DNA of 64,000 nt from Escherichia coli (GTDB lineage: Bacteria; Pseudomonadota; Gammaproteobacteria; Enterobacterales; Enterobacteriaceae): NCBI RefSeq assembly GCF_013315695.1, contig NZ_CP054353.1. One strand, 5' to 3'. The notes under the pieces were generated by a model. The model saw nothing but the letters and a program-made list of their open reading frames with translations. It was not told the DNA's origin and ran no database searches. The position numbers and the translations under genes are program-made. Of this stretch, positions 37,877 to 53,057 are shown in pieces. Within the stretch, counting starts at the first letter, position 1. Every line of letters begins with the position of its first letter.

Positions 37877-37880
37877 TGAA

Positions 37881-38096: not shown

Positions 38097-38246
38097 ACCC
38101 CGTCTCCCGTTATCCGGAAGCTGACAACAATAAAAAAAGCCACCAGTTAAGTACTGATGGCTCTGATAACTCATGCAGGCATCTCAGACGACCCACTGAC
38201 ACTACCGGTGAGTTTAACGATACCTTCCATTTGGCTGGCTCACTTT

Positions 38247-40100
38247 TTATGATGATGCCGGTGCATTTATCTCCAGCACCAGACTTTCTATCTCAACGCC
38301 ATACGCTGCATTTTTGGTAATATCCGTCAGCGTCAGCGCATTCAGCCCCAGTGTCAGACTGTCTTTTATGACCTGGAATGCCGGGCCAGCCACTCCATTC
38401 AGTTTCGGAGTAACCGTGGCACTGCCGGCGGTGAACACCAGCTCCAGCGTCTGCCAGTCGTTACTGTAATTCCCGAACTCGCCCAACTTTGTGTTTCCTG
38501 CTTTCTTGTGATGCATCAGATTCAGTTTGCCGTCTGTGGTCTGGGTGAAGAACGACATCAGGAACGGGTTACCAGTCCCGGTCATCGCCACGACGTCAGG
38601 TAACGCTACATCGGTATACAGATAAATTCCCAGACCGAACTGGTTGTTGGTCAGTGCGCCTGACAGTCGAAACTTACAGCTCAGTCTGCCACCCCGTGTC
38701 AGCAGGGAGACTGCGTCATCCACCGGGCGCGTCAGGGACCAGGCTTTATTGCTCTGCTTGGTGATCTTAAATACACCATCTGACAACTGAATTCCGCCAT
38801 TCTTAATGCTCCAGCCCTGCGCAGCAGCGTCTCCGGCTGTCGGCAACAGGGAGATTGTGCGTATGGATGCATCTTCAGACGGCCCCGATGGCGTGTCGCC
38901 GCCGGGCGAGGGTTTGATTTCCGGTGCCTTACCACTAATGAAGGCTAAGGTGCGACCGGCTACGTTCAGAATAGCAGTTGCCATACGATCGGGAATAATG
39001 CCACGACGCGCCCATGAGCTGAAATGCGTCGGGCGATTTGATGATACCCAGTTTTTGTTCGTTCGGGATGCCGAACCGTAATAACCAGACCCGGCAATAT
39101 CAGGATCTTCTGACGGGTTGTTTGTCGGTGTATTAACTCCGCTACCATCGGTCATAAAGGGAACAAAATAAATCTGCTGGGATTCTTTACCTTTATATGC
39201 ACCATATACCACTTCATATTGCGTACCGTGTTCTTGTTTCCACGCGTATGTCGTGTCGCCACAAATCCAGGGGACTGATGCCGGACTTCCACCGTGACAC
39301 TGCGCCGCCAGCCCGGCAAGGTCAGCACGGAACTGCTGTACCATTGCAAGAAATGCTGCTGGCTGCTGGGCGTAACTGGCATTCGTCATATCGAATTCCC
39401 CCTGCATCCAGCATATCGCCAGCAAAACGTTTTTCGGGTTTTTCTGCAATGCTGCCTTCGTGCGGAAAAGCAGATCCTGATATAACGGCTTACCCACTCC
39501 CCAGCGAGCCGAATCCTGACTGGCTCCCGTGGACTCGCTGAATGTCCCCTCCGTGCCCTGGGTGAATGCCGAACCACCACGACAGCATGGTACCAGCAGG
39601 ATCCCCGCATTATTAGGGATATACGGAAGCAGTTTTTTGGCAATATGTAAGCCCTGTCCGACACAGCCGTACTGCCCTTTGCTCAGGTCAGCCCGGGGAT
39701 GGTTAATCGTACTCATATCCTGAACATCATGCAGACAATGGTCAGCAGGAATGATGTCGTTAAATACGCATACTTCACCACCGGGAGTCACTGTGTTACG
39801 ACGGGCCAGTTGCTTAATGCGCGGATGGGGCGCATCGTATGAATCCGGAAGCGGAAGCCCTTCACCGTAAGCCATGGCATTGGATTGCCCGGCCAGTACG
39901 ATGACGTAGTACCACTCCGGCTCAGTTGCACCACTGACGACCACATCACCTTCTGCTGCAATCGCCTGCATCAGGGTATAAGGGGTTATGGCCACCGGAC
40001 TACCAAACGGCTGCCAGCCCTCCTTCAGTTTTTGTGTCAGTCGTTTCGCAAGGTCTGACGGCGATGCCGCCCTGACCACGTCATAGTGTTTAAATGCCAT
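38247..40100 (-). CDS. prophage sialate O-acetylesterase NanS-p (N-terminal DUF1737-like, SASA/SGNH esterase domain)
   Basis: 617-aa ORF; N-terminus MAFKHYDVVRAASPSDLAKRL…; VIVLAGQSNAMAYGEG esterase motif; located between tRNAs and holin as in Stx-type phages. Confidence 0.8.
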   Translation of the reverse strand: MAFKHYDVVRAASPSDLAKRLTQKLKEGWQPFGSPVAITPYTLMQAIAAEGDVVVSGATEPEWYYVIVLAGQSNAMAYGEGLPLPDSYDAPHPRIKQLARRNTVTPGGEVCVFNDIIPADHCLHDVQDMSTINHPRADLSKGQYGCVGQGLHIAKKLLPYIPNNAGILLVPCCRGGSAFTQGTEGTFSESTGASQDSARWGVGKPLYQDLLFRTKAALQKNPKNVLLAICWMQGEFDMTNASYAQQPAAFLAMVQQFRADLAGLAAQCHGGSPASVPWICGDTTYAWKQEHGTQYEVVYGAYKGKESQQIYFVPFMTDGSGVNTPTNNPSEDPDIAGSGYYGSASRTNKNWVSSNRPTHFSSWARRGIIPDRMATAILNVAGRTLAFISGKAPEIKPSPGGDTPSGPSEDASIRTISLLPTAGDAAAQGWSIKNGGIQLSDGVFKITKQSNKAWSLTRPVDDAVSLLTRGGRLSCKFRLSGALTNNQFGLGIYLYTDVALPDVVAMTGTGNPFLMSFFTQTTDGKLNLMHHKKAGNTKLGEFGNYSNDWQTLELVFTAGSATVTPKLNGVAGPAFQVIKDSLTLGLNALTLTDITKNAAYGVEIESLVLEINAPASS

Positions 40101-40330
40101 GAATCCTCCCGGGCGGGATAATGTTGTGAGTCAGATAAGGAGCAGGCTGAAGTCCGGAAGTTACAGGACAATGGCAGAAGGGAGACTACAGCCCGCAATT
40201 CGAAAAAGACCGCGCAGTTGCGCAGAGTGATTACTATGGGGTATTATTCGCCAGCTGAAATATTACTTCACGTTTTATTGTTTATTCCTTGCCGCCCGCG
40301 TCTCCCAGCGCGGGCTTTTTTTGTCCATAA

Positions 40331-40568
40331 GAAAGCCCCTCCGGAGAGGGGCTAAAGCCGCGTATCTGTATCATCATGCACATGGTGCCGGGTGCCTCCC
40401 GGTGAGTTCAGCCCGGTGCCACTAAACCCGCGTCATTCTCGTTTTGATAATCAGAGATTATACCGTCACCAGTCGCCCCTCCGCTCAGGGGGATTCACCA
40501 TGCGAAATTTTTTTAACAAATGCCCAGTCTGACAGGCAACTGTCAACTTACTGAATTGTGAGCAACAT
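40331..40568. repeat. hairpin-rich noncoding repeat unit, copy A
   Basis: Shares blocks aaagcccctccggagaggggct, catggtgccgggtgcctcccggtga, cccctccgc.cagggggattcaccatgc, ttttaacaaa, ctgaattgtgag with copy B. Confidence 0.7.
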
Positions 40569-40815
40569 AGCATTTAACGGGGAACCTGTTTTCTGCAGTA
40601 AAAAGGCCCACCGGAGCGGATGGGCCTGGAAGGATAGCGGTCATGTGATGCCGGTTTCCCGGTAACTCAGCACCGGTATCTGAGTCAACGTTTTCTCTAC
40701 TGGGTCATTTCCGATACGCCCTGCCTGCTGACAGGCTTTCATCACATCTGAAAATATAGCACCCTGACTGATACTGTAGTACCTAAGGTTCCAGAAACTG
40801 TGATGTATCCGGCAC

Positions 40816-41036
40816 AGAAAAGCCCCTCCGGAGAGGGGCTGGAGAGTGGCGCTATGTGCCATTGCATGGTGCCGGGTGCCTCCCGGTGAATTCAGTACCA
40901 GCACCTGAATCCGCGATTATCCCATATACCTACTCGCTGATTGCCCCTCCGCACAGGGGGATTCACCATGCCAGTTTCTTTTAACAAACTCCCCGCAAAC
41001 CAGACAACAGTCAACCGCCTGAATTGTGAGACATTT
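40816..41036. repeat. hairpin-rich noncoding repeat unit, copy B
   Basis: Degenerate direct repeat of copy A (~485 bp period); a third partial copy of the ccgg-hairpin block lies at ~40690..40740. Confidence 0.7.
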
Positions 41037-41074
41037 AAAAAAAGCCCGCAAAAGCGAGCCAGGGAAAATAAGTG

Positions 41075-41151
41075 TGGCGCGTTGTACTGGATTCGAACCA
41101 GTGACCGATTGCTTAGAAGGCAATTGCTCTGTCCGGCTGAGCTAACAACGC
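41075..41151 (-). tRNA. tRNA-Arg (anticodon UCU)
   Basis: Manual fold: acceptor GCGTTGT/ACAACGC, D-arm GCTC..GAGC, anticodon stem ATTGC/GCAAT with loop CTTCTAA, T-arm ACTGG TTCGAAT CCAGT, CCA end. Confidence 0.9.
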
Positions 41152-41164
41152 AGGATACAGATAA

Positions 41165-41241
41165 TGGACCGCCTTCGGGGACCCGAACTCCGCGCAACCA
41201 GCTTCGAAAGCTGGCGCTCTTTCCTGATGAGCTAATGGCGG
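41165..41241 (-). tRNA. tRNA-Arg-like (anticodon UCG), possibly degenerate
   Basis: Perfect anticodon stem CCAGC/GCTGG with loop TTTCGAA, but one mismatch each in acceptor and T stems and T-loop TTCGGGT lacks the conserved A58. Confidence 0.5.
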
Positions 41242-41248
41242 TATGTGA

Positions 41249-41324
41249 TGGTGGCCCTTGCTGGATTTGAACCAGCGACCTGGCGATTATGAGTCGCTCG
41301 CTCTCACCACTGAGCTAAAGGGCC
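41249..41324 (-). tRNA. tRNA-Ile2/Met type (anticodon CAU), ileX/ileZ-like
   Basis: GGCCCTTTAGCTCAGTGGTGAGAGCGAGCGACTCATAATCGCCAGGTCGCTGGTTCAAATCCAGCAAGGGCCACCA; near-identical to remembered E. coli tRNA-Ile2 (k2CAU). Confidence 0.85.
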
Positions 41325-41373
41325 GGGAGCAGAATAATAATGGTGCGTAATTAATTCTGCAATCTCATCCGTT

Positions 41374-42423
41374 TCAAACGATTAAATCCTGAACTTCCCT
41401 GACTGTCTGCTCAAAACGTCCGGTCTCCAGTTCAACGCCAATCGCACGACGCCCAAGCGCCAGTGCCGCTTTTACCGTTGAACCTGAGCCCATAAAAAAA
41501 TCTGCAACCAGGTCACCCGGACGACTGCTTGCGCTGATTATCTGCTGCAGCATTTCTGCCGGTTTTTCGCACGGATGTTTCCCGGGATAGAACTGCACCG
41601 GTTTATGTGTCCACACATCCGTGTACGGCACCTGCGCCGTCACACCAAAATACCGCCGCAGATGCTTATATTCACTCTGCAGCTCCACATACTGCCGGTT
41701 CAGTGACGTATACGTATCCACCAGCTGGTGGTGGGGCTTTTCCAGTTCACCGCGCTGATGTTTCTCTTCTGCCACCCGGGCAAACAGCGACTGTAATTTC
41801 AGATAATCGCTTTCGTTCGGTAGCTGCCACTGACTGGCACTGAACCAGTGCGACACCATGTTTTTCTTTCCTGTGGCATCTGCAATCTGTTTTGCCGTTA
41901 TCCCCAGGGCAGCGCGCGCATCACGAAAGTAAGAAATCAGCGGGGCCATCACATGCTGTTTCAGTGCACTGCCCTTCGCCGCATACCCGGCATCTTTCGG
42001 ACGATACGGCCCCTGATAATGTTCCGCGAACAGAATGCGCTCTGTGGCGGGGAAATACGCCCGCAGGCTTTCCTTGTTGCATCCGTTCCAGCGTCCGGAC
42101 GGCTTCGCCCAGATAATATGGTTCAGCACACTGAAGCGTTCACGCATCATGATTTCGATATCAGATGCCAGGCGATGACCACAGAACAGGTAAAGACTTC
42201 CGACAGGTTTCAGCACCCGCCAGAACTGCGCCAGACACTGGTCCAGCCACTTCAGGTAATCATCGTCGCCCTTCCACTGGTTATCCCAGCCCTCAGGCTT
42301 CACTTTAAAGTACGGCGGGTCCGTGACTATCAGGTCAACAGAATTTTCGGGTAACGACCGGATAAATTCCAGGCAGTCGGCGTTGATTAACTCACAACTG
42401 GATATTTTTACAGTATTAAGCAT
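41374..42423 (-). CDS. orphan DNA methyltransferase (N6-adenine/N4-cytosine class, DPPY motif)
   Basis: 349-aa ORF with DPPY catalytic motif (LIVTDPPYF) and C-terminal AdoMet-binding FxGSGST motif; no adjacent restriction endonuclease gene. Confidence 0.8.
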   Translation of the reverse strand: MLNTVKISSCELINADCLEFIRSLPENSVDLIVTDPPYFKVKPEGWDNQWKGDDDYLKWLDQCLAQFWRVLKPVGSLYLFCGHRLASDIEIMMRERFSVLNHIIWAKPSGRWNGCNKESLRAYFPATERILFAEHYQGPYRPKDAGYAAKGSALKQHVMAPLISYFRDARAALGITAKQIADATGKKNMVSHWFSASQWQLPNESDYLKLQSLFARVAEEKHQRGELEKPHHQLVDTYTSLNRQYVELQSEYKHLRRYFGVTAQVPYTDVWTHKPVQFYPGKHPCEKPAEMLQQIISASSRPGDLVADFFMGSGSTVKAALALGRRAIGVELETGRFEQTVREVQDLIV

Positions 42424-42573
42424 GGATCATTAAGCCTGTCTCTGATAGGCTCATTCTGCTTTTGCGCAAAGCAGTGGGCCTGAGGTTTGCTTGTGAACCC
42501 AACGCATGAGCAGATGGCTGGTGGGTGCCCCTAACACCCACCAGCCGCCCATTTACCACAAATAAAAAAGCCT

Positions 42574-42858
42574 TCAGGACTGAAGGCGTCTGTAACAACC
42601 GAACTGATAGTCTGCCAGACCCGCCATAACCAGCTGGGTCAGTATTAACTGGCAGCGTTCGCGTGAAAGGTAAGTATTCTGCGCTATCTCCCCGACTGTC
42701 GCCGGTTCGGTAACGCTTAATTCATTAAACACCACTCTGGCGGTTTCTGTCATATCCTGCTGTTTTAGCATGTCTTTTTCCTTTTTCCGGTTAACGTGAC
42801 ATACCAATAACTCTTGTCGAAAAAGCCAGCAAGCTGAAAGACCCGTATTCGCAACCAC
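42574..42858 (-). CDS. hypothetical small phage protein (possible HTH)
   Basis: ORF between the Q-like gene/terminator and the methyltransferase; start may be an internal Met (MLKQQDMTETAR…). Confidence 0.4.
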   Translation of the reverse strand: MVANTGLSACWLFRQELLVCHVNRKKEKDMLKQQDMTETARVVFNELSVTEPATVGEIAQNTYLSRERCQLILTQLVMAGLADYQFGCYRRLQS

Positions 42859-42896
42859 CAGCGTGTTTACTGTACTGACGCGATTTTGGGCATAAA

Positions 42897-42930
42897 AAAA
42901 AACCGCCTGACGGCAGTTTTTTTTCTTACT
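42897..42930 (-). terminator. candidate tR'-like terminator downstream of Q-like gene
   Basis: A-run, short GC hairpin (ccgcctgacggcag), T-run; reads as terminator on both strands. Confidence 0.45.
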
Positions 42931-42985
42931 TTGCCATCGCGTACAAAATCGGCAAAATATCAGATTTATATGAAACGTACGCTAT

Positions 42986-43675
42986 TTAATTGACTTTTGC
43001 AATATCTCGTCGTGAAAAAGTCGCTTTTTGTTGCGCTCTTATTTTCACGGTGCAAATCACAGATTCTCTATCGAGACTCTTAAAAATATCGCACATCTCA
43101 CGCCAGTAGTTCGCATAATTATGGCTCCAGTTATCAGGCTTAACTCCACACAGTCTGGCAAGCTCCTGTCTCTGGTAGACCTCACACCCGGTAATCCATC
43201 CTCTGACATCCTGTGCCGCCAGCCAGATCAACTTCTTCACGCGCTCCTGCGTTTTCCCTGCAATTTTTCTGGTGCCGTACCGGGTTTTAAATTCATTCCA
43301 CACCCACTGCGTTATCGCGATCTGATATTCCCAACAAATACTCCCGCTGTAACACCACAACAACCAGGCTTTATGATGTTCTTCAAGAGACAGAACAGCC
43401 CGCCGCCACGATGATGTCGAAAACTCAACCGGACTGACGAGAGGAATTGACACCCCCTTCGCCAGCGATTGCTTTCCCGGGATTGGTGGATTATCCCGCG
43501 TTATCATTTTTCCAGTCACTTCATCGCGGTACCGGATTTTTTTACGCCTGTAACGCCCTGTATCAAACATGGCATTCTCCTGCCAGGCCTCAAGCTGCCC
43601 TTTTGTTGATCCACTCAAATCGGCGGTGGCAATCATGAGTTGCTCACGAACAAACTGTAAATACTGGTTATTCAT
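42986..43675 (-). CDS. putative late-gene antiterminator (Q-like), assigned by position
   Basis: 229-aa ORF immediately downstream of rusA and upstream of terminator and late genes; sequence itself not confidently recognised. Confidence 0.4.
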   Translation of the reverse strand: MNNQYLQFVREQLMIATADLSGSTKGQLEAWQENAMFDTGRYRRKKIRYRDEVTGKMITRDNPPIPGKQSLAKGVSIPLVSPVEFSTSSWRRAVLSLEEHHKAWLLWCYSGSICWEYQIAITQWVWNEFKTRYGTRKIAGKTQERVKKLIWLAAQDVRGWITGCEVYQRQELARLCGVKPDNWSHNYANYWREMCDIFKSLDRESVICTVKIRAQQKATFSRRDIAKVN

Positions 43676-44037
43676 GCGTACTCCAGTTCTGTGATTTTTA
43701 TCCCCAACCGCCCACCAGGAACAAGCTGACCGCGCACAATATTAATTTCATCAAACTGCTCGTCGTCTATGAGCAGCCCCGCATGCGTCAGTACATCCAG
43801 TGGTGCCTTCAGGATATTGTCCAGGTCACGACGGCGCTTATCCGGTGGCTCTGCAATAATTTCTATTGCCGGCCTTCCGGACAGGTTTAATTTCAGTTGC
43901 TGCTGGCGAACAATAAGCGCCACATCACGGCGATAACGCTCACCGACTTTTGATACAAAATATGTGCTGCCACGACGTCGCCAGTAAGTGTTCACCGTTG
44001 GCGGGTAAGGCAAAACAAATTCTATGCGTTCAGTCAT
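43672..44037 (-). CDS. rusA: Holliday-junction resolvase RusA
   Basis: 121-aa ORF with RusA motifs (LPYPPTVNTYW…, PDKRRRDLDNILKAPLDVLTHAGLLIDD). Confidence 0.85.
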   Translation of the reverse strand: MTERIEFVLPYPPTVNTYWRRRGSTYFVSKVGERYRRDVALIVRQQQLKLNLSGRPAIEIIAEPPDKRRRDLDNILKAPLDVLTHAGLLIDDEQFDEINIVRGQLVPGGRLGIKITELEYA

Positions 44038-45093
44038 TTATGCTTTCCACTTCAGAACACCCGAATTTCTCGCGTGCATTAAAAAACGAATCAGCAACAA
44101 CAGCTGGCTGCCGTGTTTTTCTTCAAAATCTTTTACCCCGGCGTGTAGTTCGCTATGGCATTTACGGCACAGCGGAATAACAAACAAATCATCAGCCTTT
44201 GTTCCCATCCCTCCCAGTCCATGACCAATGATGTGATGCGGATCATCTGCCTGATTGCCACACGTCATGCATTTCTGCGTTTTTACCCAACGCGTGTATA
44301 CAGGCATCTCTTCCCGTTGTGATTTCTGGCGCTGGAGATACTGAGCCGGTGACTCCGGATCAACGGCAATGCTGACCACCGTCTTTTCCTGTGGCGGGTT
44401 TTGCTGGTGGGCGTGAGGCAGCGGCGCAAGATTTTTTGTGCGCTGCTTCAGTATGCTGGTGGCGGTCTGCTCTCCCGGTACGATGTCGCTTTCACGGTAC
44501 ATTGAGCGGATTTTTTCCGCACGCAACCCCAGCGAACGACGTAATACCGCTTCCGGTAGCGCGTCCGCCACCTGATTGCGGACCGCCCACCAGGATAATT
44601 CAGCCAGCGATAATTCCCGTTCCTGCGAGCCATTCATTGCATGGCGTATGACGTCAATCATCCATGCAGACAGGTTTTGGTGAGCAAGTTGCCCGAGTGA
44701 TTCGGAGGTCTGGTCGCGCAGCTGGTTGTCGCAGTGCCAGCACAACACCATTGCGCCGGTACCATAACGGTGAATGACGGTTTCACTGTGGTGATAATCG
44801 CCGTGTGGCCACTGGCAGGATTTAACATGGCGCAGTAACCAGTCAGACAATGCGCCAGCGCCACCAGCAGCACGAATCACTCGTTCGTCGCTGAAAAATG
44901 GCAGTAATGATTTATCCTCCGCCAGCGGCTGGCGAACGGCAGGAACGACCCCGGACGGCAGATTACGCATGCTTTTCGGTTCCGGCTCCACCAGTACCCG
45001 GGTATTGTGGAATACCGGCATGGATTCACGGCCCGGCTTAACGATCACCAGCCCGAGTTCCGGTACCAGAACAGGTCGAAGTAATACCCGCAC
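44038..45093 (-). CDS. nin-region protein, DUF968-like with Cys/His-rich C-terminal region
   Basis: 351-aa ORF; C-terminus …CMTCGNQADDPHHIIGHGLGG…CRKCHSELH…; translationally coupled to upstream orf90. Confidence 0.45.
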   Translation of the reverse strand: MRVLLRPVLVPELGLVIVKPGRESMPVFHNTRVLVEPEPKSMRNLPSGVVPAVRQPLAEDKSLLPFFSDERVIRAAGGAGALSDWLLRHVKSCQWPHGDYHHSETVIHRYGTGAMVLCWHCDNQLRDQTSESLGQLAHQNLSAWMIDVIRHAMNGSQERELSLAELSWWAVRNQVADALPEAVLRRSLGLRAEKIRSMYRESDIVPGEQTATSILKQRTKNLAPLPHAHQQNPPQEKTVVSIAVDPESPAQYLQRQKSQREEMPVYTRWVKTQKCMTCGNQADDPHHIIGHGLGGMGTKADDLFVIPLCRKCHSELHAGVKDFEEKHGSQLLLLIRFLMHARNSGVLKWKA

Positions 45094-45094
45094 G

Positions 45095-45367
45095 TTACCT
45101 CCAGATGCGTTGCTGGAATGTGCGGGACGGACGCGGTGGGCGTTCAGAGTAAGGAAGCCTGACGGAGATTATCCAGTGACGATAATCGAGGCTGAGGGCT
45201 TTCTTAATCTCGTATCCGCGTCTGCGGTAGTTATGAATTAGCCATTCGGCCTGTTCTTCAGTACATGGTGGGTGTTGGTACCAGTCGGTTTTAAATGCGT
45301 GTGAACGCCGCCCATGCCGGATGGCAAGGTCGGTATCAGAATTGTGAAATTTGGTTTTGTGCGCCAT
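45095..45367 (-). CDS. hypothetical nin-region protein
   Basis: 90-aa ORF whose stop abuts the next start. Confidence 0.45.
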   Translation of the reverse strand: MAHKTKFHNSDTDLAIRHGRRSHAFKTDWYQHPPCTEEQAEWLIHNYRRRGYEIKKALSLDYRHWIISVRLPYSERPPRPSRTFQQRIWR

Positions 45368-45534
45368 CTGTTTTCTCTGCTGGCGCAGCAGGTGTCAGGT
45401 GTTCAGGCTGACGTGCGAATTGTAAACCAGAATGCCAGAAAAAAACAAAACCCGCCGAAGCGGGTTAAGTGCGGGTGCGTTGAGGATGCCTGACACATCA
45501 GAGGTGGCGAGGGATTTCTCCCCCGCCAGGTCTC

Positions 45535-45690
45535 TTACTCCTCAGGTTCGTAAGCTGTGAAGACAGCGACCTCCGTCTGGCCGGTTCGGAGTCGTACCTC
45601 GCAGAGGTCTTTCCTCGTTACCAGTGCCGTCACTATGACGGTTAAACAGATGACGATCAGGGCGATTAACATCGCCTTTTGCTGCTTCAT
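45535..45690 (-). CDS. hok: Hok/Gef-family type I toxin (HokD/RelF-like)
   Basis: MKQQKAMLIALIVICLTVIVTALVTRKDLCEVRLRTGQTEVAVFTAYEPEE, essentially the remembered HokD sequence; extended upstream frame (to 45747) corresponds to mok-like leader. Confidence 0.9.
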   Translation of the reverse strand: MKQQKAMLIALIVICLTVIVTALVTRKDLCEVRLRTGQTEVAVFTAYEPEE

Positions 45691-45927
45691 AGCCTGCTTC
45701 CCCTTGCCTTTCGGCACGTAAGAGGCTAACCTACATTTGTGAGACATAGATTGGGCCTCAGATTAATGTTAAGCGTCTTGCAGGACGCGAAATGTTAACT
45801 GGGGCTTTTCTCTATCTGCCTTTCAGTGTTCATGCCTGAGACAGATAGCCTCAAGCACCCGCAGCCATTCTACTTAACTCACGTCACCTCGCCAATATGA
45901 AATCAATCAGAAAGGTGATCCATAAAA

Positions 45928-46614
45928 TCACTCCTTCTCTTCTTTTCCGTAGTGGAGTTGGCCAATTTTGATAAGAGGGCGTCCCTGAGATTTGCGGTGT
46001 AGATTGGTATCGCGCAGAGAATACACACAGCCACAATATTCCTGCTGATAGAATTTTTCGCGCTTGCTGATTTCAATCATACGGGACGAGCCGCCCTGCT
46101 TGCGCCAGTTATAATCCCAGTACACCATACCCGGATAATGCGCAACAGCTCGCCGCCCACACTCGTTAACCTGCTGCATATTTTTCCAGCGTGAAATGCC
46201 CAGTGAACTGCTGATCACACTGAAACCATTTTCAGCAGCGTACAACGCTGTCCGCTCAAAACGCATGTCAAAACACATGGTACAACGGATCCCCCTCTCA
46301 GGCTCCCATTCCATTCCTTTGGCACGTTCAAACCAGTTGTCGGTGTCGTAATCAGCATCGATAAACGGCACGCCGTGTTGTTCAGCAAAGCGAATATTTT
46401 CATCCTTACGAATTAAATACTCTTTCTGAGGATGAATGTTCGGGTTGTAGAAAAAGATGGTGTAGTCGATTCCCGAGGCCTGAAGCGCCTCCATCACTTC
46501 ACCGGAACATGGAGCACAGCAAGAGTGCAGTAGTAGTTTGTTTGCCCCGTTTGGGAGCTCCAATTTAGGCCGTTTGAAATCAGCAATAGTCATAAATATT
46601 TTTATTGGGGTCAT
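45928..46614 (-). CDS. QueH-like (DUF208) putative epoxyqueuosine reductase
   Basis: 228-aa ORF with [11 protein letters not shown] motif plus additional Cys clusters (CTMCFD, YCGC) recalled as QueH/DUF208 signature; not verified by search. Confidence 0.5.
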
Positions 46615-46767
46615 GAAAATAGCACAGAGTGTAGCATCAGAGCAGGTCTATCGGGAATATATGTCTAAATCTGGTAATATCTGGTTTTGACGCAAAGCGG
46701 ACAACCACGCTGGCTCTACCCTGCGCCATGAAAATGTCAATTCACATCTGAACTAATGCTCTTTAAT

Positions 46768-47208
46768 CTAGTAACGTCTAAAATACCTAACATTTCCTTG
46801 ATAAAATGCCAGTACACGCTGCATAGCTTCGCTCTTCCGGCACTCGCGACAGATTATATTCAGGCGCCTGTCGTAGCGGCGTATTTCGCCGTCTGGTAAC
46901 GACCAGATAAGGTCCGGATCAACCACTGCAGGTTTCTTCACCTTTGCCCTTGAGAGTTTTTTGCGAGCATTTTGCCAGTCCTTACGCGCCTGTTCAGACG
47001 GGAATAACCCGTAACCAGAGTTGTATACATCGCCACTGGCAACCAGCTCTCTGGCGAGAACACTCATCAGATATCTTGTCGCACCTGTCCTGGCTTCCAG
47101 TTGCCGCAACGTCTCGCGACCGCTCAGACGTACAAGTTCAACAACCTGCCCTTTAATTTTTTCCCGCTCTTCTTGTGTAAATACTTTTGCCATAAGCGCC
47201 TCCGGCAA
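46768..47208 (-). CDS. hypothetical phage protein
   Basis: 146-aa ORF in replication/nin region. Confidence 0.5.
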   Translation of the reverse strand: MPEALMAKVFTQEEREKIKGQVVELVRLSGRETLRQLEARTGATRYLMSVLARELVASGDVYNSGYGLFPSEQARKDWQNARKKLSRAKVKKPAVVDPDLIWSLPDGEIRRYDRRLNIICRECRKSEAMQRVLAFYQGNVRYFRRY

Positions 47209-47979
47209 TCACTTTTCCGATACAACACGGCGGGAAGAATCAGTAATCTGTCGAACAATATCCCGGTGCTTGTTCAGCTCCCGCAGCGCGGCGCAGACTC
47301 GCTCCCACTTCTGAACATCACTTTTCGCCCTGCGCAGCGCCAGGTTTGCCCTGCGAAGGGACGGAAAAATCAGCTCATCTGCTTGCGTTTCGGTAAACGA
47401 TGGCAACGGCTGCACAATGTCCGCCACAGTTTCTGTTTTAATTTCTTCCTGTGTTGCGGCTTCCCGGACTGGTAACGCAGCACCTGCTGGCTGAGGAAAG
47501 GCCTTACCATCACTTTCCGTTACCAGCGCGGCTTTCGGCTCTGCTGGTAAATTATCGCCCGGCATGCAGTAACGAAATTTACCGTTCTGATTAACGCGTG
47601 CCAGCCGCCCCGTTGCGGTTACCACCGCCAGCGTGGAAGCAACCTTGCGAGTACTGACACCGAACTTACCCGCCAGTTCCTCACACGTTTTAGCCCCATC
47701 CTGACCGATAAACTCAATCATCATGTCTGCGGTAACTTTTTGTTCGACCTCCCCGGTCAGCATATCCTGTGCTTCAGATTTTACTGGCCGCTCTTCGGTT
47801 ACCCGGGATTCACCTTCGCCAGCCAGAAACCAGGTGTGACCAGTTTTATCAACGACGCCTTTTCTTTTGAGTTCCCACAGCTCGTTGACAGCCTCTTCAC
47901 GACTGATTCCAAGGCGAGCTGCCACCACATGTGAAGAGGCTTTTTTCAGTGCTTTCAGTGCGTCAGATACGGTTTCCAT
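47209..47979 (-). CDS. hypothetical phage protein with putative winged-helix segment
   Basis: 256-aa ORF immediately downstream of DnaC-like gene. Confidence 0.5.
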   Translation of the reverse strand: METVSDALKALKKASSHVVAARLGISREEAVNELWELKRKGVVDKTGHTWFLAGEGESRVTEERPVKSEAQDMLTGEVEQKVTADMMIEFIGQDGAKTCEELAGKFGVSTRKVASTLAVVTATGRLARVNQNGKFRYCMPGDNLPAEPKAALVTESDGKAFPQPAGAALPVREAATQEEIKTETVADIVQPLPSFTETQADELIFPSLRRANLALRRAKSDVQKWERVCAALRELNKHRDIVRQITDSSRRVVSEK

Positions 47980-48000
47980 TAAAATTTCCTCCGGACAAAA

Positions 48001-48747
48001 TTACTTCACAACCCTCATATTGCTGACATTTGGACGCCAGCTATCCCAGTTAAACGTCACCCATCGACCACCGTTCATGGTCATGCGGTCCATAATCCTC
48101 TCACCAAGAAGCGTACTCATTGCGGCATGATTCAGGTTTGTTAACATCCCGACACTGCACAGTGATGCTGTCCGGCGATCAATTATCTGGTGCAATACCA
48201 CCTGCTCGTTTTTCGTCTCCCGCTGAACGCCTATTTCATCCAGGACCAGCAAATCAACCCCGCAAAGCTCCTGTAAAAATTTTTCCCCGGATTTGCCGTT
48301 GTCGTAGCTGTCATGCAACACGCTCATGACGTCAGACACGGTGACGATAATCACGCTGCGCCCCTTCACCATCAGCCGGTTGCCCATCGCCGCTGCAAGG
48401 TGATTTTTCCCGGTGCCGGTTTTACCGCTGAACACAAAATTCGTGCACCCGGTCATCAGTTCGTCAGCTATGGATTTGGCCTGGCTCAGCGCGTATTTTT
48501 GCCCGTCGTTCTGCACCTGATAATTTGCAAACGAGCATTTGCTGTGCAGAGGCTGGATGCCCGAACGATTCAGGATTTTTTCCACCCGCAACTGGCGATT
48601 CTGGCGGTTAATCTCCTCGCTGCGTTTTCGTCCTTCAGCAAGTTGCCATTCCCGCCACTCCTCCACCGTCCGGTACGGTGGAACCGACCCCTGTGGTGCA
48701 AGTCTGCGAATACGTTCAAGACCCCCAACTGCCGCAATGTTTTTCAT
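48001..48747 (-). CDS. DnaC/IstB-like replication ATPase (helicase loader)
   Basis: 248-aa ORF with Walker A GKTGTGKNHLAAA and Walker B LLVLDEIG. Confidence 0.85.
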   Translation of the reverse strand: MKNIAAVGGLERIRRLAPQGSVPPYRTVEEWREWQLAEGRKRSEEINRQNRQLRVEKILNRSGIQPLHSKCSFANYQVQNDGQKYALSQAKSIADELMTGCTNFVFSGKTGTGKNHLAAAMGNRLMVKGRSVIIVTVSDVMSVLHDSYDNGKSGEKFLQELCGVDLLVLDEIGVQRETKNEQVVLHQIIDRRTASLCSVGMLTNLNHAAMSTLLGERIMDRMTMNGGRWVTFNWDSWRPNVSNMRVVK

Positions 48748-48753
48748 GACACG

Positions 48754-49731
48754 TCACCCCCTGAATCCCGGCGGTATTTCAGTGTCCGGTTCAGAAATGT
48801 GATTCACGCAACGCTGCGCAGGCGAACGCCCCAGGCGGATAACCAGTTCATCCCATTTTTCCCGGAGTTTTGCCGGACTCATGATGTTTTTTACCCAGAA
48901 CGAATCCCGCTGGAGACGCCCAAACATTTCACAAATTTGTCTGTGAGTTCTGCCATCCAGCATCCGCATTGTGCGAACGTCATTGGCCCATGCTGTCCAG
49001 TTGGGTTCTTTCGGTCTAGTGATCTCGCCATCATAGCTGGCCGCCTGCTCGTAAAGACTCACGATTCGTCCCCAGATCCACTGTGCGCACACCAAATCTT
49101 CCTGACTTCCCCACTGGCGTTTTTTCGCACTGAACACAACCGCGTCAGGGTGTCGGGTTAAAAAATCCTGTTCAGCCGTCTGCGGGTCCGGTTGCGAAGC
49201 GTCCGGACAAGAAGATCTTTTATCTGACGGATCAGGTTTTAATACTGACGGATCGGGGTCAATCATCGCCCCCCTAATCGGCAGTTTTTTATCAACAGTT
49301 GATCCATCAAAATTTGACGGGTCAACCGTTGAGGGGTCAATATTTGACGGGTCAACTGTTAACGGGTCATTTTTTGCCGGGCTAATTTTTCTTTTCGGTT
49401 TATATGACTCACGCGCCGCCGCCGCAGCTGCTTCGAGTTTTTCCACATTAAGCCGATAGATATTGCTTACATTACGCCCACCGACCTTACGCTCTTCCTT
49501 CGTCAGCCAGCCCTCTTTCGCCAGTTCTGCAATAGCCGATTTCACTGTGGATTCACTTCTTGCACCGATCTGACGCCGGATAGTTTCAATGGCAGGCCAT
49601 GACACGCCCTCGTCATTGCTGTAGTCTGCAAGACGGGCCATAACCGCCACCCTGGATAAGATCATGCCGGTGAAGGCGCACCCTTCCCAGACAAGACCAT
49701 GAAGCTTGCTGCTCATAAAACCCCCGAACAC
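48754..49731 (-). CDS. replication initiator (lambda O / YdaU-like) with internal origin iterons
   Basis: 325-aa ORF; N-terminal HTH region; repeated DPSNIDPSTVDPSNFDGSTVD peptide encoded by DNA iterons. Confidence 0.75.
   Translation of the reverse strand: MFGGFMSSKLHGLVWEGCAFTGMILSRVAVMARLADYSNDEGVSWPAIETIRRQIGARSESTVKSAIAELAKEGWLTKEERKVGGRNVSNIYRLNVEKLEAAAAAARESYKPKRKISPAKNDPLTVDPSNIDPSTVDPSNFDGSTVDKKLPIRGAMIDPDPSVLKPDPSDKRSSCPDASQPDPQTAEQDFLTRHPDAVVFSAKKRQWGSQEDLVCAQWIWGRIVSLYEQAASYDGEITRPKEPNWTAWANDVRTMRMLDGRTHRQICEMFGRLQRDSFWVKNIMSPAKLREKWDELVIRLGRSPAQRCVNHISEPDTEIPPGFRG
49299..49373. repeat. origin-like iterons (five ~15-bp direct repeats, ttgacgggtcaac-type) inside the O-like gene
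   Basis: ttgatccatcaaaat / ttgacgggtcaaccg / ttgaggggtcaatat / ttgacgggtcaactg / ttaacgggtcatttt. Confidence 0.7.
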
Positions 49732-49738
49732 CGTGCTT

Positions 49739-50164
49739 TTAGTGCATCACCACAGCATTCCCTGCCGGGCCGCCGCGATTCATCTGGTCATACAAAACAA
49801 CCGCTGACGCAACAAAATCATCGACATCCTTCACCAGCCGATCCCTCCGTTCGACGATCTCACGGTAATATTCAGAACTGTGGCTGCGCATACGGGCCAC
49901 CAGCAAAGGCGGCATCGCCTTTTCGATCGCCGGTAACAGAGCCTGCATTTTTTCAACAGCATCAGGGGGGGCTTTCTCTACCCAGCGGAAAATTTTCTGG
50001 GTATTGCGAGCCAGGGCTTCCGGATGGCTGTCGTCATACAGTTCCGGGAACGTCATACCCAACTCAAAATAAGCCTGGGTTATTCCAGCTGCTGGAACTT
50101 TTTCGCCATCAGGACGCGCCCAGGCATTCATCGCCATGCGGATGTGTTCATGCTTGATTTTCAT
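49739..50164 (-). CDS. YdaT-like protein (cII-position gene)
   Basis: 141-aa ORF beginning MKIKHEHI…, as remembered for Rac YdaT. Confidence 0.65.
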   Translation of the reverse strand: MKIKHEHIRMAMNAWARPDGEKVPAAGITQAYFELGMTFPELYDDSHPEALARNTQKIFRWVEKAPPDAVEKMQALLPAIEKAMPPLLVARMRSHSSEYYREIVERRDRLVKDVDDFVASAVVLYDQMNRGGPAGNAVVMH

Positions 50165-50429
50165 GAATCAAGCTCCTAGAAAGTGGTTGTGTTAACGTTT
50201 TGGTATCTTCCAGCTCGGGCCAAATATTCATCCAATCAAAAGGCCTTAGTTGCTGACGTGTAACTTCACCATTACTGGCTCGCTCAATAAGGACACATAA
50301 CGATGCCCCTAACACTTGACCTTTACTCAATGCCTTTCTTAGATAACCGATGCTGGTACCACACTCGCATGCAAACATACGCTGTTCATCTGACGAAAGA
50401 GAATTGAGAAATATTCTTAATTCTTCCAT
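50148..50429 (-). CDS. Cro-like/YdaS-family HTH regulator
   Basis: 93-aa ORF with HTH (ECGTSIGYLRKALSKGQ) and YdaS-like C-terminus (QQLRPFDWMNIWPEL); divergent from repressor gene. Confidence 0.7.
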   Translation of the reverse strand: MEELRIFLNSLSSDEQRMFACECGTSIGYLRKALSKGQVLGASLCVLIERASNGEVTRQQLRPFDWMNIWPELEDTKTLTQPLSRSLIHENQA

Positions 50430-50456
50430 AGCTACTCCTTAGTAAACACAGCAAAG

Positions 50457-50493
50457 AATACCCACAGGTAAACAAAAGCCAATACCCACAGGT
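50457..50493. promoter_or_regulatory. right operator region (two aatacccacaggt sites within gtaaacaa/ttgtttac inverted repeat)
   Basis: Repeated 13-mers at 50457..50469 and 50481..50493 in the 100-bp divergent intergenic region. Confidence 0.6.
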
Positions 50494-50529
50494 TGTTTAC
50501 CTTGCGGTAATCGCATCTATTATTTACCT

Positions 50530-50949
50530 ATGGACAAATATGAATTTAGACGACAGCAACTCATCAAAATTCGTGATGAGAAATGCGATGGTAAAGCGGT
50601 TAACGTGGCCAGAAAGATCGGGCGCGAGCCTTCTTATGTATCAAGAATGTTGTACCCAGAGGGGAAAAAGGGAAAAAAACGGATCGCTGATGATATGGTG
50701 GAGATTATCGAAGAGTCCTTTGGGTTACCCCGGGGATGGATGGATGGTATCGTTTCATCATCAACGAACACAGCCTCCAGTTATGAAACAAGGGTTCTAA
50801 CGCCACGACAACGTATTTTTTTAGATCTCTTAGACGAACTGCCAGAAAGTGAAGCGGATAAATTATTAAAAACTCTTGAAGAGAAAAAACAGTATTACAA
50901 TATGATCTACGAAGAAATCCGTAAAAAGAAAGCACAAAACGCATCATAG
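50530..50949 (+). CDS. prophage repressor, RacR-like (HTH, no S24 peptidase domain)
   Basis: 139-aa ORF with HTH (AVNVARKIGREPSYVSRMLY); divergent from cro-like gene. Confidence 0.7.
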   Translation: MDKYEFRRQQLIKIRDEKCDGKAVNVARKIGREPSYVSRMLYPEGKKGKKRIADDMVEIIEESFGLPRGWMDGIVSSSTNTASSYETRVLTPRQRIFLDLLDELPESEADKLLKTLEEKKQYYNMIYEEIRKKKAQNAS

Positions 50950-50989
50950 CTCACCAAACAACTAGTCACCAGTTAAGACACCGCAAAAT

Positions 50990-51028
50990 TTACCCATGGG
51001 TATTTACTTTTTAAATACCTATGGGTAT
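50990..51028. promoter_or_regulatory. left operator-like palindromes (tacccatgggta, atacctatgggtat)
   Basis: Palindromes sharing the accca.(g)ggt core with the right operator, just upstream of the leftward early operon. Confidence 0.5.
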
Positions 51029-51213
51029 CCTTCTTTTCATACCAACCCACCCCGCCCCACAGAATGCAGGGCAATACTTCGAGTTACCAGGCAGTGGTCA
51101 GGGGTTAAGTAGCCAGCCCGAGGCGTAAGAACATGACGGCAGGGTTCAACTTTAATAACTATGCAGCAGGTTTTTGTTCCGCTACCCCGGCGTTAAGGGG
51201 AAATGAGGTCAGC

Positions 51214-51366
51214 ATGGATACTATCGATCTTGGCAACAGCGAATCTCTGGTATGTGGCGTGTTCCCCAACCAGGACGGTACGTTCACCGCGATGACGTAT
51301 ACCAGAAGCAAAACGTTTAAAACTGAAGCTGGCGCGCGTCGCTGGTTAACCAGAAACACTGACTGA
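51214..51366 (+). CDS. hypothetical small early protein (YdaF-like by position)
   Basis: 50-aa ORF MDTIDLGNSESLVCGVFPNQDGTFTAMTYTRSKTFKTEAGARRWLTRNTD with RBS; alternative start at 51133. Confidence 0.45.
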   Translation: MDTIDLGNSESLVCGVFPNQDGTFTAMTYTRSKTFKTEAGARRWLTRNTD

Positions 51367-51779
51367 TGAGGTTGACGATGGAATTTAAAGATTTACCAGT
51401 ACCATTCCAGGAAATGGCATCGAATGTGGTTCGCTCTCAACTGGCGACTCTTGACCTGAGTACCGTAGAAAAGGAAACCATCGATACTATATCCGGTAAC
51501 GTGCGTCGTGCCTTTATAGGTCTGTATGAAGAGAAGCGCCTATTCGGCGGACAGAATTCGCCTGAAAACAAGAATCAAGCAAATGATGAGAAGCTGAAAC
51601 ACATTATCGCCTTACTTTTGGAAGACGCAAAACGTCTACAGCAACTGGAACCAAATGCAGGCACAGAGGCCCGCATTTGGATTGCCATGAAATCACTCAA
51701 ATGTGAAAGCAGTGATTATTTCAAAACAACAATTAAAACTACTCAACTTTCGGGAGAGCTACTGAAGAAATTGCCATAA
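51366..51779 (+). CDS. hypothetical early protein
   Basis: 137-aa ORF whose start overlaps the previous stop. Confidence 0.5.
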   Translation: MRLTMEFKDLPVPFQEMASNVVRSQLATLDLSTVEKETIDTISGNVRRAFIGLYEEKRLFGGQNSPENKNQANDEKLKHIIALLLEDAKRLQQLEPNAGTEARIWIAMKSLKCESSDYFKTTIKTTQLSGELLKKLP

Positions 51780-52056
51780 GAGCATGGTCTTTCTCTTGTT
51801 CTGCAAGATGAGCATTAATACCTGGTATGGTTTTTTCAAATTTATCTATCTGTTGAATAACAACTTCGCGGTATACGTTTGTTTTTGTACCACCAAGCGC
51901 AGCCGTTAATGCAGAAAGCATATTTAGTATCATATCAGTGCGATATGAAAGAATCCTGATAGCTTCATCTTGTTCTTCAATAATAGATTGCAGGGCCTCA
52001 ATTTGCTTTTTATCCATTTCACCCTCCTGAGGGTTGGTAATTAAGGAGTTCTCCAC
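51739..52056 (-). CDS. hypothetical protein, opposite orientation within early-left operon
   Basis: 105-aa ORF convergent with orf137; predicted coiled-coil-like composition. Confidence 0.4.
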   Translation of the reverse strand: MENSLITNPQEGEMDKKQIEALQSIIEEQDEAIRILSYRTDMILNMLSALTAALGGTKTNVYREVVIQQIDKFEKTIPGINAHLAEQEKDHALMAISSVALPKVE

Positions 52057-52962: not shown

Positions 52963-53057
52963 CCCTCCAGCCATATTAACACCATACCAACGGATTAAAA
53001 ATGCCAGCAATGGCAGGGATTCGTTCACCCTGAAATCTGTAATGAGGTTAAAACAAA

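What the first reader, a model, noticed from the sequence alone, without database searches (positions are those of the whole stretch)
45400..45930. hok-family type I toxin locus inside the prophage nin region
The 51-aa product is essentially HokD/RelF. The upstream in-frame extension and the ~200-bp leader (45748..45930) should encode the mok overlap and the antisense Sok RNA, with the fold-back element downstream. This would act as an addiction or abortive-infection module that stabilises the defective prophage.
Basis: partly seen in the sequence, partly recalled or inferred. Interest (0 to 1): 0.4.

Follow-up and report, generated by a model that had tools for sequence, protein, structure and literature searches.

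The report
Intact prophage hokD/mok/sok toxin-antitoxin locus
This is an ordinary, already annotated copy of the well-known hok/sok RNA-controlled toxin module, sitting in a truncated lambdoid prophage of E. coli with all of its known regulatory parts in place.

Summary
On the minus strand, window 45441..45895 holds a complete hok/mok/sok type I toxin-antitoxin locus.

- **Toxin:** a 51-aa Hok peptide (45535..45690; Pfam HOK_GEF, E = 6e-23). It matches K-12 HokD/RelF at 50 of 51 residues.
- **Mok:** an in-frame 70-aa ORF whose ATG aligns with K-12 mokC.
- **Leader:** a 170-nt leader that scores 120.5 bits against Rfam RF01794.
- **Transcription signals:** a sigma-70-like hok promoter and an intrinsic terminator.
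- **RNA switch:** a 5' tac box pairs with a 3' fbi box in the predicted full-length fold (P about 1). It switches to the ucb box once the fbi box is removed.
- **Antitoxin:** a Sok homologue at 45739..45815 (+). Its -10 box has the same sequence as the one mutated experimentally in sokW.

K-12 hokD keeps only the part from the hok ribosome-binding site onward, so this copy is the complete form of that truncated gene.

The 561-bp query around the locus (45380..45940) is 100% identical in at least 24 E. coli genomes, where the gene is annotated hokD. Similar DNA occurs in 4937 of 5426 complete genomes and in many lambdoid phages.

The host prophage is defective: an IS1-linked deletion removed its head and tail genes. 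The proposed addiction or abortive-infection role is untested. The closest studied homologue, hokW-sokW, instead aids lysis on induction.

Already known; low interest.

The parts
45867..45895 (-). hok promoter, TTGGCG-17 nt-TAGAAT; the -10 box ends 7 nt before the inferred +1
   Evidence: Promoter scan, 9 of 12 matches, the only hit in 45300..46100. The -10 region aligns with hokW and hokC.
45441..45860 (-). Predicted full-length hok mRNA, about 420 nt. The +1 is inferred at GGGUGCUUGAGG by homology with R1, hokC and hokB, and the 3' end at the T tract after the terminator.
   Evidence: The Rfam model starts at 45860; alignment A1; terminator scan; fold. The ends are inferred, not mapped.
45849..45860 (-). 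tac box (translational activator element), mRNA nt 1-12
   Evidence: Pairs with fbi in the full-length MFE fold, pair probabilities 0.97-1.0. Pairs with ucb once fbi is removed. Forms a 5' metastable hairpin in nascent 26-52 nt transcripts.
45799..45807 (-). ucb box (anti-SD), AAGCCCCAG, mRNA nt 54-62
   Evidence: In the truncated fold, nt 54-60 pair with tac nt 1-8. Homologous to the R1 A70-G71-C72 anti-SD described in PMC9841398.
45739..45815 (+). Sok antisense RNA homologue ('SokD'), about 77 nt: a single-stranded 5' tail, a long hairpin, then CUUUUCUCU
   Evidence: The annotated K-12 sokC and sokB both map to exactly 45739..45815 through alignment A1. Fold energy -31.1 kcal/mol with a terminator-like hairpin. 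Covers the mok SD and AUG.
45705..45733 (+). Sok promoter, TTGCCT-17 nt-TAACCT
   Evidence: The sequence from the -35 box through the -10 box matches hokW. TAGGTTA (mRNA sense) is the element replaced in the sokW promoter-less mutant, as deduced from primers YO-421 and YO-422 of PMC8621323. It is too weak for the consensus scan.
45535..45747 (-). mok ORF, 70 aa, in frame with hok; GAGG Shine-Dalgarno at 45756..45759, 8 nt before the ATG
   Evidence: ORF list. The ATG aligns with the annotated mokC ATG. Landmarks.
45535..45690 (-). hok toxin ORF, 51 aa (HokD type, I34L relative to K-12); SD AAGGGGAAG at 45697..45705
   Evidence: Pfam HOK_GEF 6.3e-23; NCBIfam Hok family match, 3.7e-13, below that model's curated cut-off; 50 of 51 residues identical to K-12 HokD and 47 of 51 to HokW.
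45506..45527 (-). GC-rich 3' stem-loop GGCGGGGGA-GAAA-UCCCUCGCC, the presumed 3' end of the processed active mRNA
   Evidence: Present in all folds. It sits where R1 has the last stem-loop that protects the truncated mRNA (PMC9841398).
45473..45485 (-). fbi box (fold-back inhibitory element), CCUCAACGCACCC, mRNA nt 376-388
   Evidence: 12 pairs plus one bulge with tac; duplex -21.5 kcal/mol against a shuffled mean of -14.3 (sd 1.9), with 0 of 500 shuffles reaching it. It is at the same place, 49 nt after the stop codon, in hokW, the Rac phage fragment and phage Evi. hokB has two compensatory changes.
45441..45466 (-). Intrinsic terminator AACCCGCUUCGGCGGGUU followed by a U tract
   Evidence: Terminator scan: 7-bp stem, 5 GC pairs.

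Best explanation
The locus is a sequence-intact hok/mok/sok type I toxin-antitoxin module of the HokD/HokW clade. It sits in the nin-equivalent region of an IS1-truncated lambdoid prophage at the ompW site of E. coli.

Proposed mechanism; all steps are inferred from the R1 paradigm except where marked as shown:
1. A weak sigma-70 promoter makes a stable hok mRNA of about 420 nt.
2. During transcription a 5' hairpin hides the tac box (predicted here).
3. In the finished RNA the 5' tac box pairs with the 3' fbi box. This closes the molecule so that it is neither translated nor bound by Sok. The complementarity and the predicted fold are shown here.
4. Slow 3' trimming back to the GC-rich stem-loop removes the fbi box. 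The tac box then pairs with the ucb box, which is predicted here, and the mok start region opens.
5. Sok, about 77 nt and short-lived, is transcribed from the opposite strand. It is fully complementary to the mok Shine-Dalgarno sequence and AUG. It blocks mok translation, and hok translation is coupled to it. The duplex is cut by RNase III.
6. When Sok supply stops, Hok is made, enters the inner membrane and collapses the membrane potential. Sok supply could stop through loss of the element, a general shut-off of transcription, or prophage induction.

Which trigger matters in nature is not known.
For: - Hok peptide: Pfam HOK_GEF 6.3e-23; 50 of 51 residues identical to K-12 HokD.
- Leader: Rfam RF01794 at 120.5 bits against a gathering score of 59.
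- Homology: the leader aligns with hokW, hokC, hokB and an R1-type hok.
- Sok and Mok: the annotated sokC and sokB map to 45739..45815, and the mokC ATG maps to 45747.
- Sok promoter: the -10 box has the same sequence as the one mutated in the sokW study.
- RNA switch: tac-fbi pairing has P about 1 in the full-length fold, and tac-ucb pairing appears after truncation. A metastable 5' hairpin forms in nascent RNA.
- Specificity: the tac-fbi duplex beats 500 of 500 shuffles and shows compensatory changes in hokB.
- Transcription signals: promoter and terminator found.
- Annotation: the gene is called hokD in at least 24 genomes that match the 561-bp query at 100%.
- Function of relatives: HokW (47 of 51 identical) and sokW behave as toxin and antitoxin (PMC8621323). 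The K-12 HokD peptide is listed as a toxic control (bioRxiv 10.1101/2025.08.07.668861).
Against: - Nothing here measures transcription, processing, toxicity or Sok activity for this copy.
- The full-length MFE fold pairs ucb with the hok SD (GGGG) rather than with the mok SD as in the R1 model, and it keeps the mok SD paired with the dcb box in both forms. The thermodynamic prediction therefore reproduces only part of the published switch.
- The hok SD carries a G where relatives have an A (AAGGGGAAG).
- The Sok promoter is a poor consensus match.
- Sequence-intact chromosomal hokA, hokB and hokC loci were reported not to give post-segregational killing or rifampicin activation (summarised).
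Confidence: 0.88

Rival explanations
1. Addiction role. The module kills cells that excise and lose the prophage remnant, and so stabilises it.
For: The regulatory design (a stable closed mRNA and a cis-antisense RNA) is that of the plasmid post-segregational killing system. The remnant still carries integrase and excisionase genes, so loss by excision is conceivable. hok genes are enriched about four-fold in prophages.
Against: No test of this copy exists. Chromosomal hok loci that were tested did not mediate post-segregational killing. The one study of a close prophage homologue reported no stabilisation phenotype and found a lysis-helper role instead. The element is also fixed by an IS1 deletion on one side, so attR is probably gone and clean excision is unlikely.
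Confidence: 0.25
2. Induction-coupled lysis helper, as for hokW-sokW. On SOS induction Sok disappears, Hok is made, and it speeds lysis and phage release. In this truncated prophage the role would be vestigial.
For: HokW is 47 of 51 identical, and the sequence from the -35 box through the -10 box of the Sok promoter matches hokW. In Sp5, mitomycin C removed sokW RNA, induced HokW in a RecA-dependent way, and deleting the locus halved phage yield (PMC8621323). hok has the same orientation as the early-right operon, with no terminator-like site between queH and the hok promoter. Read-through at induction would therefore run against the sok promoter. That last step is my inference.
Against: The prophage here has no head or tail genes, so there are no progeny to release. 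The effect in Sp5 was only two-fold. The interference mechanism is untested.
Confidence: 0.3
3. Abortive infection. Shut-off of host transcription by an infecting lytic phage depletes Sok and releases Hok, which limits phage spread.
For: R1 hok/sok on a high-copy plasmid reduced T4 plating by 42% and plaque size by about 85%, as quoted in PMC8621323.
Against: hok genes are not enriched near defence systems, according to the section heading of bioRxiv 10.1101/2025.08.07.668861 (I did not read that section). There is no evidence for a single-copy chromosomal locus, and none for this clade.
Confidence: 0.12
4. Silent passenger. The locus is intact in sequence but never activated under natural conditions, and is carried along with the prophage DNA.
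For: Intact chromosomal hokA, hokB and hokC loci gave no killing after rifampicin or plasmid loss. K-12 hokD has lost its whole control region without harm.
Against: All regulatory boxes are conserved. The same architecture recurs across hokW, the Rac phage fragment and phage Evi with about 93-95% DNA identity, and 3306 genomes hold a near full-length copy. That argues for purifying selection. hokW-sokW is demonstrably active.
Confidence: 0.2
5. A toxin-only remnant like K-12 hokD/relF, with no mok, sok or 5' control elements.
For: The peptide is nearly identical to K-12 HokD.
Against: Homology to K-12 covers only window 45441..45704. Upstream of that, K-12 has relE, whereas the window has the full leader shared with hokW, hokC, hokB and R1, plus the Rfam match.
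Confidence: 0.01

Closest known systems
hokW-sokW of Sakai prophage 5 (Stx2 phage) of E. coli O157:H7 (PMC8621323)
   Same: Same clade and same setting (a lambdoid prophage). HokW is 47 of 51 identical. The tac and fbi boxes match, as does the sequence from the -35 box through the -10 box of the Sok promoter. Both carry the same 16-18-nt insertion in the Sok hairpin. DNA identity is about 92.6%.
   Different: The C-terminus differs (TAYEPEE here, VDYESEK in HokW). The hok SD has GGGG instead of GGAG. The host prophage here is a remnant without morphogenesis genes, whereas Sp5 is inducible.
hokD (relF) of the Qin cryptic prophage, E. coli K-12
   Same: The peptide is 50 of 51 identical. The DNA is 98.1% identical from the hok SD to the terminator, including the fbi box. 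The DUF968 neighbour is 79% identical to YdfU.
   Different: K-12 lacks the promoter, tac, ucb, mok start and the Sok gene with its promoter. relE-relB sit there instead. Here queH lies upstream. The ORF in the position of rem is unrelated to Rem.
hok/sok (parB) of plasmid R1, the paradigm of the family
   Same: Same order of elements: tac, ucb, mok SD, mok, hok, 3' stem-loop, fbi. Same antisense arrangement, with the Sok promoter at the homologous place (TTGCGC-17 nt-TATCCT in the R1-type plasmid copy).
   Different: The peptide is clearly divergent; HokW is 44% identical to R1 Hok according to PMC8621323. The Sok hairpin is longer here. The location is a prophage, not a plasmid. Post-segregational killing has been shown only for the plasmid systems.
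hokC/mokC/sokC (gef) and hokB/mokB/sokB of E. coli K-12
   Same: The leader aligns throughout. The annotated sokC and sokB map onto 45739..45815, and mokC is in frame with hokC just as mok is here.
   Different: K-12 hokC has IS186 directly downstream, and its 3' region does not align with the fbi box. mokB is out of frame with hokB. Neither locus is in a prophage.

Membership tests
hok/sok (Hok/Gef) type I toxin-antitoxin family | Small (about 50 aa) hydrophobic Hok peptide matching the Hok/Gef profile | tested here: met
   Pfam PF01848, E = 6.3e-23, 80.6 bits against a cut-off of 22, full profile 1-42.
hok/sok (Hok/Gef) type I toxin-antitoxin family | Overlapping mok reading frame that starts upstream of hok and has its own Shine-Dalgarno sequence | tested here: met
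   70-aa ORF 45535..45747. Its ATG aligns with the annotated mokC ATG, and GAGG lies 8 nt upstream.
hok/sok (Hok/Gef) type I toxin-antitoxin family | Cis-encoded antisense Sok gene, with promoter and terminator, opposite the mok start region | tested here: met
   Homologue of the annotated sokC and sokB at 45739..45815 (+). Terminator-like hairpin followed by a U tract. The -10 box has the same sequence as the experimentally mutated sokW -10. Actual transcription was not tested.
hok/sok (Hok/Gef) type I toxin-antitoxin family | Long-range 5'-3' pairing (tac with fbi) that closes the full-length mRNA | tested here: met
   12 pairs with P = 0.97-1.0. Duplex energy -21.5 kcal/mol, reached by 0 of 500 shuffles. 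hokB shows compensatory changes.
hok/sok (Hok/Gef) type I toxin-antitoxin family | Alternative tac-ucb stem once the 3' end is removed, and a metastable 5' hairpin in nascent RNA | tested here: met
   nt 1-8 pair with nt 54-60 in all three truncations. A 5' hairpin forms in 26-52-nt transcripts. These are predictions only.
hok/sok (Hok/Gef) type I toxin-antitoxin family | ucb sequesters the mok SD in the full-length mRNA | tested here: inconclusive
   The MFE fold pairs ucb with the hok SD GGGG, and pairs the mok SD with the dcb box. A 6-of-7 ucb to mok-SD complementarity can be seen by eye, but it is not the predicted optimum.
hok/sok (Hok/Gef) type I toxin-antitoxin family | Stable 3' stem-loop between the stop codon and the fbi box, marking the end of the processed mRNA | tested here: met
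   9-bp GC-rich stem at 45506..45527 in every fold.
hok/sok (Hok/Gef) type I toxin-antitoxin family | Match to the curated covariance model of the locus | tested here: met
   RF01794 at 120.5 bits against a gathering score of 59, full model 1-157. The match is on the hok-mRNA strand.
hok/sok (Hok/Gef) type I toxin-antitoxin family | Hok is toxic; Sok neutralises it; 3' processing activates the mRNA | not testable with these tools
   Shown only for relatives: hokW-sokW, the HokD peptide as a toxic control, and R1.
HokD orthologue group (NCBI 'type I toxin-antitoxin system toxin HokD') | Near-identity to K-12 HokD and a lambdoid prophage context next to a ydfU-like gene | tested here: met
   50 of 51 residues identical. 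RefSeq annotates the identical DNA as hokD. The DUF968 neighbour is 79% identical to YdfU.

The most novel reading that the evidence does not exclude
The most novel reading not excluded is that hok is deliberately co-oriented with the prophage early-right operon, with no terminator between queH and the hok promoter. Induction-time read-through would then silence the convergent sok promoter by transcriptional interference. That would make Hok a built-in, induction-timed lysis accelerator, and would explain the unexplained RecA-dependent loss of sokW RNA. The clade-specific 16-18-nt extension of the Sok hairpin might tune Sok half-life for this purpose.
Probability: 0.15. Interest if true: 0.35.

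Novelty: already known. Interest (0 to 1): 0.1.

Why it matters
It matters little beyond correct annotation. The window shows the complete form of the locus whose truncated remnant is the textbook K-12 gene hokD/relF. It can therefore serve as the reference for what K-12 lost: the promoter, tac, ucb, mok start and sok. RefSeq annotates only the toxin ORF here, so the mok frame, the Sok RNA and the mRNA control boxes mapped in this report fill in that annotation. The biological role of hok/sok in prophages is still open (prophage stabilisation, phage defence or lysis helper), but this copy offers no special handle on that question.

Tried and rejected
- **Rfam strand.** I first took the Rfam 'sok' hit as the antisense RNA. 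Its strand and alignment show that it is the sense strand of the hok mRNA leader, from +1 to the hok AUG. Sok was therefore located by mapping the annotated sokC and sokB instead.
- **Sok promoter scan.** The consensus promoter scan did not find the Sok promoter. It was identified by homology to sokW and R1.
- **Left boundary of the prophage.** I assumed from the K-12 gene order that ORF 35171..35674 was yciE. NCBIfam shows it is an IS1 transposase, and yciE is a pseudogene beside it.
- **Rem.** I expected the 90-aa ORF downstream of hok to be Rem, as in Qin. There is no similarity.
- **att repeats.** A search for att-like direct repeats at the prophage ends was run on each end region separately, so it could not detect a repeat shared between the two ends. 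It found nothing within either region.
- **tac-fbi in R1.** MAFFT does not keep the R1 fbi box in register with the others. tac-fbi pairing was therefore checked per locus by duplex folding rather than by column counts. For the R1-type copy, the unconstrained duplex search gave an ambiguous optimum.
- **Weak Rfam hits.** The hits in the 3' UTR (isrK at 27 bits, rsmX, CRISPR repeats) are all below their gathering scores. They reflect the terminator hairpin and were dismissed.

Full report
**1. What is there**

On the minus strand there is a 51-aa ORF at 45535..45690, with an in-frame extension to an ATG at 45747 that gives 70 aa.
- The 51-aa peptide is MKQQKAMLIALIVICLTVIVTALVTRKDLCEVRLRTGQTEVAVFTAYEPEE.
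- It matches Pfam HOK_GEF over the full profile (E = 6.3e-23, 80.6 bits against a cut-off of 22).
- It differs from K-12 HokD at one position (I34L) and from HokW of Stx2 prophage Sp5 at four further positions.
- A scan of the whole window against Rfam gave one match to RF01794 ('sok') at 45685..45860, at 120.5 bits against a gathering score of 59 (E = 7.7e-29 when only the local region is searched).

The feature is real and far beyond chance.

**2. It is a known, annotated gene**

The 561 bases 45380..45940 are 100% identical in at least 24 complete E. coli genomes, where the ORF is annotated 'type I toxin-antitoxin system toxin HokD'.
- 4937 of 5426 genomes hold similar DNA, and 3306 hold a place covering at least 80% of the query.
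- Similar loci occur in 110 phage records, annotated as MokW, host killer protein, HokD toxin or hok/mok.
- Similar loci also occur in 753 plasmid records.

**3. Anatomy, in mRNA orientation (minus strand)**

- **hok promoter.** The only sigma-70-like promoter in 45300..46100 is TTGGCG-17 nt-TAGAAT at 45895..45867. It ends 7 nt before GGGUGCUUGAGG at 45860, where the Rfam model begins and where R1, hokC, hokB and hokW mRNAs align.
- **Terminator.** The only terminator-like site is AACCCGCUUCGGCGGGUU plus a U tract at 45466..45441. This gives a transcript of about 420 nt.
- **Landmarks.** tac is nt 1-12 (45860..45849). ucb is nt 54-62 (45807..45799). The mok SD GAGG is at 45759..45756 and the mok AUG at 45747. 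The hok SD is at 45705..45697 and the hok AUG at 45690. The stop codon is at 45537..45535. The GC-rich stem-loop is at 45527..45506. fbi is nt 376-388 (45485..45473).

**4. The RNA switch**

- **Full-length fold.** The MFE fold of the 420-nt RNA pairs tac with fbi (12 pairs, one bulged C), with pair probabilities 0.97-1.0.
- **Truncated fold.** Cutting the RNA at nt 358, 362 or 370 removes fbi. In every case tac nt 1-8 then pair with ucb nt 54-60. This is the tac/ucb stem of the active form described for R1 (PMC9841398).
- **Nascent RNA.** Transcripts of 26-52 nt fold tac into a local hairpin, matching the published metastable structure.
- **Specificity.** The tac-fbi duplex (-21.5 kcal/mol) was reached by none of 500 shuffles of the 3' UTR. 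It lies at the same distance, 49 nt after the stop codon, in hokW, the Rac phage fragment and phage Evi. In hokB two positions change on both sides: U-A becomes C-G, and G-C becomes A-U.
- **One mismatch with the R1 model.** In the full-length MFE fold, ucb pairs with the hok SD (GGGG) rather than the mok SD. I score that feature as inconclusive.

**5. Sok**

The Rfam hit is on the same strand as hok and runs from +1 to the hok AUG. It is therefore the sense leader, not the antisense RNA.
- I located Sok by carrying the annotated K-12 sokC and sokB through alignment A1. Both map to exactly 45739..45815 on the plus strand.
- That RNA has a free 5' tail, a long hairpin and then CUUUUCUCU (-31.1 kcal/mol). 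It is complementary to the mok SD and AUG.
- Its promoter is TTGCCT (45705..45710), 17 nt, TAACCT (45728..45733).
- Primers YO-421 and YO-422 of PMC8621323 replace exactly this TAGGTTA (mRNA sense) to make the sokW promoter-less mutant. The window has the same sequence there.
- Relative to sokC, sokB and R1, the hokD/hokW clade has a 16-18-nt insertion in the hairpin loop that itself forms a 5-bp stem. Sok is therefore about 77 nt rather than 57-59 nt.

**6. Relation to K-12 hokD/relF**

Homology with K-12 is 98.1% but covers only window 45441..45704. Upstream of the hok SD, K-12 has relE-relB. K-12 therefore lacks the promoter, tac, ucb, mok start and sok. The window holds the complete version of that locus.

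**7. Context**

All neighbouring genes are on the minus strand. In order they are:
- replication genes;
- DUF1627 and DUF977 genes;
- queH (PF02677, 1.1e-65), whose stop codon lies 32 nt before the hok -35 box;
- hok;
- a 90-aa ORF;
- a DUF968 gene (79% identical to YdfU);
- rusA;
- Q.

This is the position of the lambda nin region.

Window 35690..61083 is collinear, at 99.6% identity, with part of a full-length prophage at ompW in strain AR_0013. It stops just after the Rz-like lysis gene. To the left lie an IS1 transposase gene (34977..35674) and a truncated yciE. Only one complete genome, E. coli MSB1_4I, has this junction. The prophage therefore has integrase, immunity, replication, nin, Q, tRNA and lysis genes but no head or tail genes.

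**8. Function**

The regulatory logic can be read from the sequence; the biological role cannot.
- For plasmids the role is post-segregational killing.
- For R1 on a multicopy plasmid there is partial exclusion of T4 (quoted).
- For the closest studied relative, hokW-sokW, mitomycin C abolished sokW RNA and induced HokW in a RecA-dependent way, and deleting the locus halved phage yield.
- Intact chromosomal hokA, hokB and hokC gave no killing in the classical tests.
- hok genes are about four-fold enriched in prophages.

I rank 'functional type I toxin-antitoxin module regulated as in R1' as well supported. I leave the trigger open, with a modest preference for a prophage-linked role. Because hok is co-oriented with the early-right operon and no terminator precedes it, read-through at induction would collide with the sok promoter. 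That is my inference and is untested.

**9. Verdict**

The locus is already known and annotated. Interest is low.

Noticed in passing
window 45685..45860 (-): The Rfam family RF01794, named 'sok antitoxin', matches the sense strand of the hok mRNA leader (+1 to the hok AUG), not the antisense RNA. Annotation pipelines that use this hit would place 'sok' on the wrong strand and with the wrong ends.
   Followed up: yes
window about 45773..45788: hokD/hokW-type loci carry a 16-18-nt insertion (GCGUCCUGCAAGACGC, a 5-bp stem) in the loop of the Sok terminator / sokT hairpin. It is absent from hokC, hokB and R1, and makes Sok about 77 nt long.
   Followed up: partly
window 45697..45705 (-): The hok Shine-Dalgarno region reads AAGGGGAAG here, against AAGGAGAAG in hokW, K-12 hokD, hokC and R1. 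In the predicted full-length fold this GGGG pairs with the ucb CCCC.
   Followed up: no
window 45547..45553 (-); Tyr47 codon 45550..45552: The Tyr47 codon TAC sits in UUACGAA, which contains the TACG motif edited A-to-I by TadA. This recodes Tyr to Cys in hokC, hokD and hokE of K-12 (PMC5630033, PMC12214031). The local hairpin predicted here is weak (-3.3 kcal/mol).
   Followed up: partly
window 45314..45493 (+): A 59-aa ORF runs antisense to the hok terminator and to the start of the 90-aa gene. RefSeq annotates it as a hypothetical protein and phage Evi as a 'mobile element protein'. It has no Pfam match and is probably not a gene.
   Followed up: partly
window 45928..46614 (-): An epoxyqueuosine reductase QueH homologue (PF02677, 1.1e-65) is encoded inside the prophage, directly upstream of the hok promoter. 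It is a tRNA-modification enzyme carried by a lambdoid phage.
   Followed up: no
window 34630..35690: The prophage ends abruptly at 35690 next to an IS1 transposase gene (34977..35674) and a truncated yciE (34630..34922). An IS1-linked deletion removed all head and tail genes. Only E. coli MSB1_4I (NZ_LR898874.1) shares this junction, so it is the likely source of the window.
   Followed up: yes
window 45095..45367 (-): A 90-aa ORF occupies the position that rem has in K-12 Qin, but it has no detectable similarity to Rem and no Pfam or other family match.
   Followed up: partly
window 40323..41324 (-): There are two copies of the sRNA family STnc100 (165 and 136 bits) followed by three tRNA genes, in the prophage late-regulatory region between Q/methyltransferase and the esterase and lysis genes.
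   Followed up: no
window 52354..52405 (+), 26793..26886 (+), 11863..12075 (-): DicF sRNA (77 bits) lies in the prophage early-left region. The trp leader and the sRNA STnc180 lie in the flanking chromosome.
   Followed up: no
window 45445..45526 (-): A weak isrK-like Rfam hit (27 bits, gathering score 50) covers the hok 3' UTR and terminator. It most likely reflects hairpin similarity only.
   Followed up: partly
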